Below, piece after piece: positions 7,568-56,645 of a DNA stretch of 64,000 bases. The notes under the pieces were generated by a model. The model was not told where the DNA came from and did no database searches. It saw only the letters and a program-made list of their open reading frames with translations. The stretch is from Octopus vulgaris (taxonomy: Eukaryota): the NCBI GenBank assembly GCA_951406725.2, contig OX597826.1, positions 58,900,001 to 58,964,000 of the forward strand, given 5' to 3'. A program made the translations under genes and the position numbers. Every line of letters starts with the position of its first letter. Position 1 is the stretch's first letter.

Positions 7568-7903
7568 TATTACGGAGATGTACTTGCATAGCAAGTGACC
7601 TAATCTGAGATCTTGCGCTGGAATGAAAACAATTTTAGCGTGGAAGGTGTTTATAAGCCATTTAAGAAACACTCTAAAACCGTTAGATTCACTTCAACAT
7701 TTAAATTTAATTTGTCTAAATATTTTCGTCGCTTTCAGACCGTGACTTGTTCACGGAGATGCAGTACGGAGTTTTGTCAGTGAACAGGTCGCGGTCTCAA
7801 AGCGACGAAAATATTTTGTCAAATTAAATTTAAATGTTGAAGTGAATCTAACGGTTTTTGTGTGTTTCTTAAATGGCTTATAAACACCTTCCACGCTGAA
7901 ATT
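7568..7903. mobile_element. Fold-back element, ~124 bp inverted arms (7631-7754 / 7780-7903), Penelope-terminus-like
   Basis: Arms are near-perfect reverse complements; HHR-like motif at the start of the right arm. Confidence 0.75.
7773..7823 (+). ncRNA. Hammerhead-like motif, G3:C8 core variant
   Basis: TTTGTCA-GTGAACA-G-GTCGC(loop)GCGAC-GAA-AATATT-T-TGTCAAA; helix I has one mismatch in this copy. Confidence 0.45.
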
Positions 7904-10523
7904 ATTTATTATTATCATGTAATCAATGATAATTTTGATTGAACAACTGAATGTTCCTCCTCGAAATGTGAAATATCTCCCTACCCACCAAATATGTTAG
8001 ACAGCATTGCTGTTTCCTTCTGGGAAGTTTCCTGTTACGCACCGCTATAGCCATATCCAGGAAACCATTTATAATATTTGAAATGAATTATAAGAACATT
8101 TTAAAACTGGAACCAGAGTACAGGATTTTACAAAGTTCTACAATTGCGTACATAGATTTTATGGGATTAAACCGATGAAAGCTGAATAAATCTACAAGGA
8201 TAATGATAGGACACCCTTTTTTTGTTAAGCAACATATCCAGCAAGAACTCGAAATGAAGGACATAGGTCAAGATATATTGCTAAAATGCCCTAAAACACA
8301 TCTATGAAATATGTATTTGACTTTAAGGTGAGTTAAGAGTTAAAAACCCCACAATTAACGGTCCTAGTTGGTCTGAGTGCTATTACAAATATAAAGAAAG
8401 ACCGTGAACTGCGAGAAAAGAAAAAAATATTGCTCAAATGGAACTTAATTGTATGATATAAATTTGAACTCAGATCTACAATTTGGTCGACAACAACATT
8501 AGCACTTGACTATTTAACCTCAACGCATGCTTGTTTTGTATTTGTTTAGTTCCAGTTCAGACTTCATCCAACAGAACGACAATGATCAAAGAAATTCCGG
8601 CTTTCTTGCCTTTTATTTTTAATGGTCATCACGAATCTGTGAATACAGCAGCCAAAATGCCCTTCCTCTTTTCTCCCTTTCCTTTTTCTTTTGTTTTGTC
8701 GATAGATAACCAAGGGATGGGAATCGTAAGGGCTGGAATGTCTTTGATCATATAAGTTCCCTCGAGAAGGGCTGTCACGGGTCTAAGAATCAACAACGTC
8801 AAGAATAGCAACAATAACAATAAAATTTGACAATTTACCTCCTCGTGGCACCGCATGTATTATTGAAGAAAAATATTGAGTTGTTCGCAAATAATTTCTA
8901 CGCATTCTGTGTTTCCGTGAATATAAATATTTTTCTTTCCGAGGAATGAACAAAGTTTCTATCTCCAGCAGAAATAGCGTATTATTTCTTTAGGACTTCG
9001 AGATGATTCGTCGAAAACTTTGAACTTTTAGTCATTCTCTCTTCCTTTTTTTCTTTCTATACCTTGCTCTGATATAAATAAATAAATAAATAAATAAATA
9101 AATAAATAAATAAATAAACAAATAAATAAATAAATGAATAAATAAATAAATATATAAATTGATAAGTAAATAAATACCGGAATTTTCAAAAGTATTGCGA
9201 TAAGGAAAAAATATTTTGAAGAATCATTGGCAGATTGTCATATCAGAGACGGTATATGTATATATATGTATGTATCTATGTGTGCGTGTATGTATACGCA
9301 TATTCAATTTTATATACATGTGTATGTATATAATATTTATACATATATATATATATATGCATGGTATATATATATATATATATATATATATGCATGGTTA
9401 TATATATATATATATATATATATATATATATATATATATATATATATATATATATACATATATATATATAAATATATATGTTCATATATATAAACATATA
9501 TATTTATATATATGTACATATATATATATGTTTATGTATATAAAAATTATATATGTGTGCATATATATGTACACACATACATCATATATATACATGCATA
9601 TATATATATACATATATAAATGTATATATATATATATATAGGTACATATCTATGCACCTATTCCAAACAGTCAGTCATACACACACAAACACACGCACAT
9701 ATATTTGTAGTCATATATATATAAGTATGACATAACGGGTTATTAAAATAATGTCAGCTGAGATTTCTAGAATTGGTTTTACACTTCAAATATCTTTTCA
9801 GCTAAAAAAAGAACAACAAAAAAAAGAAAACAGATTAAAAATGCAAATATCGCCCAAAAAACCAAACGAAACGAAAATGACAAACGCTCTATGCAGGATA
9901 ACTTGTTTGTCAACTGTCATGTCGATGGGAAGATTGGCTGGTTTGAGTTTATTTCTTCTTAAATATTTCCCTGTTTTATATGTTGATCCACGTAAAAATG
10001 ATATCAGTGTGTATGAGGTATGACTACTTGTCTGCAAAAAGTATATAAAAAGCGGAATAAGTTATTTTGCAGGAGTAAGATGAGTTACATTTCGAGTAGG
10101 AGACTTCGTCATAGAGAATAAAAGCAGGGGAAGAAGTGGGAGAGATGAGGGGGGAGGAAAAGAGCAAGAGAGAGAGAGAAAGAAAGTGAGCGAGAGAGAG
10201 GTGGTGAAATACATGTGTTGCTGAATATATAGATGCGTAGCAGCGAGAAGTAGAACAACCTTAATAGTTAATTTTAATGGAAAGGACGAGGCTAAGAAGT
10301 AGAAACTTCGATGTTGAGTTCGAATTTGCATCAAGTATTTTAGTTCATTTCTGGATACAAGTTTTGTTTTTTTCTATTTTACCATTGTTTTCTTATATGT
10401 TGGGAAATGGTATCAGATCACCTGCGGTAGTTTTTTTTTTATCCTAAGACGGGAGTCCAGCAGTTCCGATTCCCTTTGTATAGCATCCAAACTATAATTT
10501 TTATTATAATATGCAATGTTCAG

Positions 10524-10715
10524 ACGGCGATTTGGCAGAATCGTTAGCACACTGGACGAAATACTTATCGGTATTTCACCCGTCGCAACGTTCGGAGTTC
10601 AAATTCCGCTGAGGTCGACTTTGCCTTTCATCTTTTCGGAGTCGATAAATTAAGTACCAGTTGATCGCTGGGGTCGATGTAATCATCTCATCACTACCTC
10701 CCCCAAGCTACCCTT
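10524..10715 (+). mobile_element. SINE family C
   Basis: GGCAGAATCGTTAGCAC..GAGTTCAAATTCCGCTGAGGTCGACTTTGCCTTTCATC. Confidence 0.8.
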
Positions 10716-11074
10716 GAACTAATTATAATATGCAAAATTATTCTTGTTCCAGATCGAATTTTTATCTTCATACATGAATCCAGCAAGTCGGTTTCAATTT
10801 ACATGTCATCCAAACTATGACTTCATTATAAGATGCAAAATTATTCTTGTTATTGTTGTGTTTGTACCAGGAGCAAAGAAGATTACGGTGACTGCTATTA
10901 CTGTTGTTATTAATGTAGAAACCGTGATCAACTCTGATTGAGCAAACCAATGATTTATAAAGATACAAATGAGCGTAAATATGTATTTAGATCTATGTGT
11001 ATGAATGTGTGTGTTTTGAGGCACGAAAATGTTGACAGTGGTAGGAATTTGATGCTTCAAATTTTCGCACAATG

Positions 11075-56234: not shown

Positions 56235-56275
56235 GCTACAGACGCGTTTCGGGTATTGCCCCTTTTCAATGCAGC
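56235..56275 (-). ncRNA. Type I hammerhead ribozyme, U3:A8 variant
   Basis: GCTGCA-TTGAAAA-GGGG(CAATA)CCC-GAA-ACGCGT-C-TGTAGC. Confidence 0.8.
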
Positions 56276-56604
56276 GTAGCCAAACCAGTAGGTGTCGCTT
56301 CCGACAATCTCTGTTCAAAGGTTTTATTTACCTAGCTTCGGTGGAATACATCCACTTGTTTTCAATAATAGAAATATTAAAATTGTTAAGTCTCTCTAAA
56401 AGAGAACAACGGCAGCGTTCCCGGAAAATATTAGTTATCGCCATACTAATATGGCATTCTTATAAAATTAAGAATAAAGCTGACCGCTTATTAGTAATTT
56501 TAATATTTCTATTATTGAAAACAAGTGGATGTATTCCACCGAAGCTAGGTAAATAAAACCTTTGAACAGAGATTGTCGGAAGCGACACCTACTGGTTTGG
56601 CTAC

Positions 56605-56645
56605 GCTGCATTGAAAAGGGCAATACCCCGAAACGCGTCTGTAGC
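56605..56645 (+). ncRNA. Type I hammerhead ribozyme, U3:A8 variant (inverted copy)
   Basis: GCTGCA-TTGAAAA-GGG(CAATAC)CCC-GAA-ACGCGT-C-TGTAGC; GUC site at 56637-56639. Confidence 0.8.

What the first reader, a model, noticed from the sequence alone, without database searches (positions are those of the whole stretch)
7773..56645. Hammerhead core 3:8 pair covaries across families (C-G, U-A, G-C)
Seen: CUGAUGA/CUGAAGA at 28052, 32309, 14306, 53548; UUGAAAA at 56611 and 56263; UUGAUAA at 49595; GUGAACA at 7780. Known: C3-G8 is a Watson-Crick tertiary pair and compensatory swaps partly rescue activity. Inferred: double changes in unrelated families indicate selection on the catalytic fold, and strict CUGANGA searches would miss these elements.
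Basis: partly seen in the sequence, partly recalled or inferred. Interest (0 to 1): 0.75.

Follow-up and report, generated by a model that had tools for sequence, protein, structure and literature searches.

The report
Swapped-core hammerhead in abundant animal repeat
Several short jumping-gene remnants in this animal DNA carry small self-cutting 'hammerhead' RNA motifs, and one very abundant repeat family has two paired letters of the catalytic core exchanged, a form known from laboratory mutants and apparently not yet described in nature; the other core variants are already published and cutting has not been shown.

Summary
All eight heptamers are present. They are type-I, dimer-type hammerhead motifs like those of Penelope-like element (PLE) terminal repeats. 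A strict descriptor, free at positions 3 and 8, finds 5 motifs at 4 independent insertions against 0.02 per shuffle, all Watson-Crick at 3:8.

The eight sites are seven insertions: four canonical C3-G8, two U3-A8 (56263/56611 are one duplication; 49595 folds only partly) and one G3-C8. U3-A8, with these same two heptamers, is published for PLE hammerheads, so the general idea is known.

The new part is G3-C8 at 7780. It lies in a 326-bp inverted insertion with a 13-bp target duplication. Reads and contigs under three species labels show a very high-copy family. Neither core letter has a listed alternative among the 40 of 186 difference rows shown, and in one run position 8 has no G or A at 3%. 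The C3G/G8C double mutant is active in vitro. I found no natural case in print, but could not read one key paper. Cleavage is not shown, and this copy folds poorly.

The parts
7573..7898 (.). Short inverted insertion of the G3-C8 family: arm 7573-7754 (motif on minus strand, about 63 nt longer at its outer end) and arm 7755-7898 (motif on plus strand)
7560..7572 (+). Left copy of a 13-bp target-site duplication
7899..7911 (+). Right copy of the 13-bp duplication; about 97% of family depth reads another letter at 7899, marking the element's end
7773..7823 (+). G3-C8 hammerhead motif: helix I 7773-7779/7817-7823, core 7780-7786, unpaired G 7787, helix II 7788-7792/7802-7806 closed by G10.1-C11.1, GAAA 7807-7810, palindrome 7810-7815, predicted cut after U7816
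   Evidence: family variation
7711..7754 (-). Second G3-C8 copy in the inverted arm; 5' strand of helix I lost at the inversion junction, helix II mismatched
14274..14316 (-). Canonical C3-G8 motif, 8-nt palindromic helix III, GUA site
14107..15615 (.). 1.5-kb inverted insertion between (TA)n tracts; the second arm has lost 4 nt of the core near 15480
28046..28092 (+). Canonical C3-G8 motif, 10-nt palindromic helix III, GUC site; the double-hammerhead is the predicted lowest-energy dimer
27849..28301 (+). Partial-tandem element: 112-bp direct repeats 341 nt apart, between microsatellite tracts
32303..32396 (+). Canonical C3-G8 motif with a 63-nt helix II closed by U-U, GUA site
49560..49605 (-). 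U3-A8 core with 4-bp helix II and GAAAC; helix III and helix I junction irregular (probable, decayed or atypical)
53513..53560 (-). Decayed canonical C3-G8 motif, GUC site
56235..56275 (-). U3-A8 motif, left arm of an inverted duplication
56605..56645 (+). U3-A8 motif, right arm; 6-nt palindrome, GUC site; the double-hammerhead is the predicted lowest-energy dimer
56003..56987 (.). Compound inverted and tandem insertion within (TA)n tracts holding both U3-A8 copies
49331..49366 (+).
   Evidence: score 9; 0.17 such hits per shuffle

Best explanation
The motifs are minimal type-I hammerheads in 5'-truncated or non-autonomous remnants of Penelope-like retroelements. Each family descends from a master RNA in which two motifs pair through the palindromic helix III (probably helped by the element's protein) and cut slowly after position 17. 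The ribozyme needs a Watson-Crick pair between positions 3 and 8, not particular bases, so master lineages with U3-A8 or G3-C8 survived while single mismatches did not. The G3-C8 master was then amplified to a very high copy number by target-primed reverse transcription, mostly from uncut RNA, so that copies keep the whole motif. Shown: motifs, folds, insertion anatomy, family-level G3-C8. Inferred: PLE origin, dimer cleavage, past selection. Most present-day copies, including this one, are probably inert.
For: Fold excess over shuffles with 5 of 5 strict hits Watson-Crick at 3:8. The G3-C8 motif shows features not required by my descriptor but listed as PLE hallmarks: unpaired base after A9 and G10.1-C11.1 (PMC4209133); U17 is common in that paper's alignment. 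Outward-facing inverted arms with a one-sided tail at 7573-7898 and 14107-15615, and (TA)n targets for three other elements, match described PLE insertions (PMC8557442); a 13-bp target duplication fits retrotransposition. Family data (shares): 17,594, 13,399 and 7,493 contigs laid in three DNA runs; within the motif the listed differences fall in loop II (7793, 7796, 7798), a G-U wobble in helix II (7803) and helix I position 7819, where over 99% of depth is A or G and both pair, so the window's mismatch is private; none of the 40 rows shown lies in a conserved core position. C3G/G8C is the only strongly rescuing double mutant in that region in a pairwise scan (PMC9901934) and partly restores a PLE hammerhead, which is protein-assisted and dispensable for insertion in vitro (PMC11167929). 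Two neutral hits among 13 core letters would land on 3 and 8 and be complementary about 1 time in 234 (simple model).
Against: No PLE reverse transcriptase or GIY-YIG remnant next to any motif. For the 7780 copy the double-hammerhead fold is -19.0 kcal/mol against -28.6 for the best dimer and -24.2 for two monomers. The RNA run shows equal depth in both directions and no pile-up of ends at the predicted cut. 146 of 186 difference rows were not displayed, and position 3 is not directly resolved below about 21%. Both wobble-type changes are transitions and 7803 is a CpG, so they need no selection. The tail (about 63 nt) is longer than the published 30-40 bp.
Confidence: 0.68

Rival explanations
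1. Dead fossil fixed by a founder effect: the G3-C8 motif descends from a PLE hammerhead but the master was inactive or nearly so, and was amplified anyway because cleavage is not needed for insertion.
For: Ribozyme mutants do not affect PLE insertion in vitro (PMC11167929); poor predicted fold of this copy; no cut ends in RNA; family copies are not enriched for starts at the cut site (depth shows no step at 7817).
Against: The two changes are exactly compensatory while the other core letters and all three helices are kept; the same swap is the one rescuing pair in vitro.
Confidence: 0.2
2. The G3-C8 motif is a chance look-alike inside a SINE or DNA-transposon family that never had a ribozyme; the other motifs are ordinary PLE hammerheads.
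For: No PLE coding sequence linked; no Rfam hit; with many repeat families per genome, one look-alike is possible; G3-C8 was 0 of 120 among sampled viral pattern matches.
Against: Score 14 is reached by 0.007 hits per shuffled window; no terminal inverted repeats at the element ends, a 13-bp duplication, the same outward inverted layout as canonical-core neighbours; no tRNA found.
Confidence: 0.1
3. The cross-family pattern is an ascertainment effect: the reader picked complementary 3:8 cases from many random heptamers.
For: 128 matches to the three patterns in the window; 49595 is doubtful; small number of independent insertions.
Against: Descriptors blind to 3 and 8 return only paired cores in the real sequence (5 of 5), whereas 34% of shuffled half-motif hits are paired.
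Confidence: 0.05

Closest known systems
Minimal dimeric type-I hammerheads of metazoan Penelope-like elements (Cervera and De la Pena 2014, PMC4209133)
   Same: Type-I topology, palindromic helix III, unpaired base after A9, G10.1-C11.1, pairs on opposite strands 100-700 bp apart; the U3-A8 heptamers of 49595 and 56611 both appear in its Schistosoma rows.
   Different: 0 of the 56 alignment rows I saw has G3; the unpaired base here is G, outside their H consensus though present in one row; no PLE ORF is linked in this window.
Natural U3-A8 core variants (Perreault et al. 2011, PMC3088659)
   Same: Natural covariation of the 3:8 pair.
   Different: The section read names only U3-A8; no G3-C8.
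Engineered C3G/G8C double mutants (PMC9901934; PMC11167929; review PMC8495972)
   Same: The same swapped pair, partly active, including in the Anolis Poseidon PLE hammerhead.
   Different: Laboratory constructs; here the swap is the majority state of a natural repeat family.
Non-LTR retrozymes, non-autonomous PLE derivatives (bioRxiv 10.64898/2026.07.22.740005)
   Same: Short non-coding units with a type-I hammerhead; the 341-nt partial tandem at 27849-28301 fits.
   Different: The G3-C8 element is a dispersed inverted insertion, not a tandem array; circular RNA not tested.

Membership tests
Hammerhead ribozyme (type I) | Core UGAN-A and GAAA with UH site in a three-helix junction | tested here: met
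   7780, 14312, 28052, 56269, 56611 and 32309; 53554 decayed; 49601 not met for helix III and helix I junction
Hammerhead ribozyme (type I) | Watson-Crick pair between positions 3 and 8 | tested here: met
   All 8 listed heptamers, and the copy at 7754
Hammerhead ribozyme (type I) | Canonical C3 and G8 identities | tested here: not met
   7780/7754 are G3-C8; 49601, 56269, 56611 are U3-A8
Hammerhead ribozyme (type I) | Match to an Rfam hammerhead model at gathering score | tested here: not met
   0 hits in the window, also for canonical motifs; none among the 150 of 568 rows shown at E up to 10
Hammerhead ribozyme (type I) | Site-specific self-cleavage | not testable with these tools
   One fragmented RNA-seq run shows no end pile-up, which neither shows nor excludes cleavage
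PLE minimal hammerhead | Palindromic helix III allowing a double-hammerhead dimer | tested here: met
   Palindromes at 5 motifs; dimer is the lowest-energy fold for 28052 and 56611, 3.4 kcal/mol above it for 14312, 9.6 above for 7780
PLE minimal hammerhead | Unpaired base between 9 and 10.1, and G10.1-C11.1 | tested here: met
   Both in the G3-C8 motif; mixed in the others
Penelope-like element | RT plus GIY-YIG ORF linked to the repeat | tested here: not met
   No such Pfam hit near the motifs: 141 of 194 long segments and 82 short segments; short truncated copies would lack it
Penelope-like element | Inverted or partial-tandem insertions with one-sided tail, AT-rich or microsatellite targets | tested here: met
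   Four insertions; tail about 63-66 nt rather than 30-40
Family-level G3-C8 variant | Variant is the family majority, not a private mutation | tested here: met
   no row at 7780 or 7785 among 40 of 186 rows shown; in run X7 no G or A at position 8 at 3%; position 3 bounded only by inference
Family-level U3-A8 variants | Variant is the family majority | not tested
MITE or tRNA-derived SINE | Terminal inverted repeats at element ends, or tRNA-like head | tested here: not met
   Ends of 7573-7898 are not complementary; ARAGORN 0 genes, which would miss a decayed head

The most novel reading that the evidence does not exclude
The G3-C8 family is a working natural hammerhead, kept by selection in a non-autonomous PLE-type element present in tens of thousands of copies in at least three related animal species. 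It would be the first described natural G3-C8 core at genome scale and would complete a natural series C-G, U-A, G-C in one genome, implying that a whole class of PLE ribozymes has been invisible to CUGANGA/UUGANAA descriptors.
Probability: 0.35. Interest if true: 0.65.

Novelty: new variant of a known kind. Interest (0 to 1): 0.45.

Why it matters
The role of hammerheads in Penelope-like elements is open: cleavage is slow, protein-assisted and not needed for insertion in vitro. A family that changed both partners of the 3:8 pair and kept everything else is natural evidence that the catalytic fold, not only the sequence, was under selection. A very high-copy family makes this testable with thousands of copies and a simple four-construct cleavage assay. 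It also shows a blind spot of pattern searches. The U3-A8 and canonical sites add only further members of a known class.

Tried and rejected
Rfam: 0 hits at gathering score; the E-value search was swamped by microsatellite matches to miRNA models. No genome is held for the window, so no consensus could be built from genomic copies. I first rejected 32309 because my descriptor capped helix II at 45 nt; a longer cap reversed this. A strong-scoring A3-U8 hit at 57198 lies in (TA)n sequence and fails the palindrome test: rejected. An 18-letter family pattern in metagenome contigs gave 91 matches; the longest alignment to the element was 29 bases and the 4 matches with downstream core-like letters form no hammerhead: no homologue. 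Families do not align with each other, apart from a marginal 45-nt segment between the 28052 and 56611 elements. Earlier notes by place and by sequence: nothing. The published octopus repeat library is in an external archive and could not be read. Lunse et al. 2017 and Przybilski and Hammann 2007 are not held.

Full report
Setting. The window is 34% G+C animal-type DNA dense in (TA)n and related microsatellites. No genome is held. I take it to be cephalopod DNA from recalled repeat features and from editing-like changes in the RNA run; this label comes from no call and nothing below depends on it.

Observation. All 8 heptamers are at the stated places, four on the minus strand. Alone they are uninformative (128 matches to the three patterns). 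A type-I descriptor that leaves positions 3 and 8 free and demands helix I, helix II and a palindromic helix III finds 7780+, 14312-, 28052+, 56269- and 56611+, against 0.02 hits per local dinucleotide shuffle in 100 shuffles; all 5 have a Watson-Crick 3:8 pair, while 34% of shuffled half-motif hits do. 32309+ is also a credible motif once a 63-nt helix II is allowed (shuffle mean 0.02 in 200). 53554- is a decayed canonical motif. 49601- has core, helix II and GAAAC only, and half-motifs occur 1.4 times per shuffled window, so it stays probable. Rfam finds none of them.

Independent events. 56269 and 56611 are arms of one inverted duplication; 7780 has an unlisted partner at 7754- in one insertion. 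The tally is four C3-G8, two U3-A8 (one doubtful) and one G3-C8 insertion. The families do not align with each other: 1 of 27 between-family pairs exceeds its shuffle maximum, by one point. The pattern is therefore covariation across unrelated families, not a reconstructable series of changes.

Anatomy. Three insertions are head-to-head inversions with the motifs pointing outwards (7573-7898, 14107-15615, 56003-56987); the first two have one arm 63-66 nt longer. The 28052 element is a partial tandem with 112-bp repeats 341 nt apart. Three lie in (TA)n tracts, and the G3-C8 element has a 13-bp target duplication. Inverted truncated copies, a 30-40-bp one-sided tail and microsatellite targets are described for PLEs (PMC8557442, passages). 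Against membership, no RT or GIY-YIG remnant lies next to any motif: 141 of 194 long open segments and 82 short ones were scanned; the only RT fragments are at 62653-63824.

What is known. Perreault et al. reported natural U3-A8 (PMC3088659, passages and section 8). Cervera and De la Pena found U3-A8 in Schistosoma PLEs, about 1,300 hits with an adapted descriptor, and listed an unpaired base after A9, G10.1-C11.1 and a palindromic helix III as emergent features, with low dimer activity (PMC4209133, parts 1-2 of 4). In the 56 rows of their supplementary alignment that I saw, both U3-A8 heptamers of this window occur, U17 is common, and 0 rows have G3 (one supplementary file could not be searched). 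C3G/G8C is the only strongly rescuing double mutant of that region in a pairwise scan (PMC9901934, passages) and partly restores the Anolis PLE hammerhead, which needs protein and is dispensable for insertion in vitro (PMC11167929, passages; review passage PMC8495972; engineered G3-C8 mentioned in PMC3884650). Searches for natural G3-C8 found none; passages of PMC6765202, PMC6155905, PMC13725137, PMC13282606 and bioRxiv 2026.07.22.740005 added none. I saw nothing of Lunse et al. 2017, the large survey of PLE hammerhead variants, or of Przybilski and Hammann 2007, so novelty is provisional.

Is G3-C8 fixed? The stretch is held by runs under three species labels. Laying three DNA runs and one RNA run at 80% likeness gave 17,594, 13,399 and 7,493 contigs and 1,459 reads, with summed depth 1.3-2.9 million over the core. 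Divided by flank depth this is 25,000-61,000; the tool warns that this is no copy number, so I read it only as tens of thousands. Of 186 difference rows, 40 are shown; none is at 7780, 7785 or another conserved core position. The 26 rows I recomputed all reach 0.206 or more in some run and the other 14 reach about half or more; if rows are ranked by share, which the tool does not state, any alternative at 3 or 8 is under about 21%. One statement is direct: run X7 has a single C>G place (7736, shown) and no C>A place, so position 8 is neither G nor A at 3% there. Position 3 is not resolved directly. Listed variation within the motif falls in loop II, at a helix II wobble (a CpG) and at 7819, where A and G make up over 99% and both pair; the window's mismatch there is private. 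A sister subfamily with a canonical core could be under-counted by the likeness cut-off. The RNA run shows both directions equally (374 and 392 over the core), no pile-up of ends, and no depth step at the cut site.

Mechanism. Shown: folds, anatomy, family majority. Inferred: each master RNA forms a double hammerhead through its palindrome and cuts slowly after position 17, probably with protein help; the 3:8 pair is required as a pair; copies are made largely from uncut RNA. The double-hammerhead is the lowest-energy dimer for 28052 and 56611 and within 3.4 kcal/mol for 14312, but 9.6 kcal/mol above the best fold for the 7780 copy, which counts against activity of this copy. Two neutral changes among 13 core letters would hit 3 and 8 and pair about 1 time in 234 (equal-rate model), which favours selection in the master lineage over decay. 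In viral contigs G3-C8 folds were 0 of 120 sampled matches against 34 of 121 canonical, so the state is rare there. Four earlier notes of this scan mention G3-C8 candidates in other genomes; they are unchecked and not used as support.

Verdict. The new element is one apparently undescribed natural G3-C8 core that is the majority state of a very abundant animal repeat family. New variant of a known kind; interest 0.45.

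Noticed in passing
window 49331-49366 (+): Hammerhead-like motif with C3-G8 kept and U in place of A6, 4-nt palindrome and 4-bp helices; weak score. It faces the 49601 motif on the other strand.
   Followed up: partly
window 7600-7930, run X22: RNA reads show 36 A>G and 41 T>C places against 2-3 and 7-10 in the DNA runs, as expected from A-to-I editing of double-stranded repeat RNA; no matched DNA, so not shown.
   Followed up: no
upstream of window 7757, loose ends: Family copies continue 5' into a shared stretch; in RNA reads it contains an 18-nt perfect palindrome, and other loose ends at 7770 show recurrent inversion junctions. The family may spread as a ready-made inverted unit.
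   Followed up: no
window 7573-7580 and 7754-7761: The outer end of the long arm repeats 8 letters found just upstream of the motif, so in the motif's sense the two are complementary and could close a long-range stem.
   Followed up: no
window 15470-15490: The second arm of the 14107-15615 palindrome has a 4-nt deletion that removes most of the core, while the arms are 97-98% alike.
   Followed up: partly
window 62653-63824 (+): Broken reverse-transcriptase fragments (Pfam RVT_1, E 2e-7 and 8e-3); clade not determined; no hammerhead found beside them.
   Followed up: no
window 27944-27988 and 56495-56540: The C3-G8 element at 28052 and the U3-A8 element at 56611 share a marginal 45-nt similarity upstream of the motif and at their (TA)n junctions; they may be distant relatives, which would make this a true paired change.
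   Followed up: partly
window 2086-2173 and 14177-14259: An 88-bp fragment of the 14312 element's end recurs at 91% identity beside a (TA)n tract.
   Followed up: no
window 5157-5521: Two tandem 184-bp copies of a SINE-like repeat.
   Followed up: no
loci L332-L452: 34 of 121 sampled viral-contig matches are well-formed canonical type-I hammerheads, 28 distinct.
   Followed up: no
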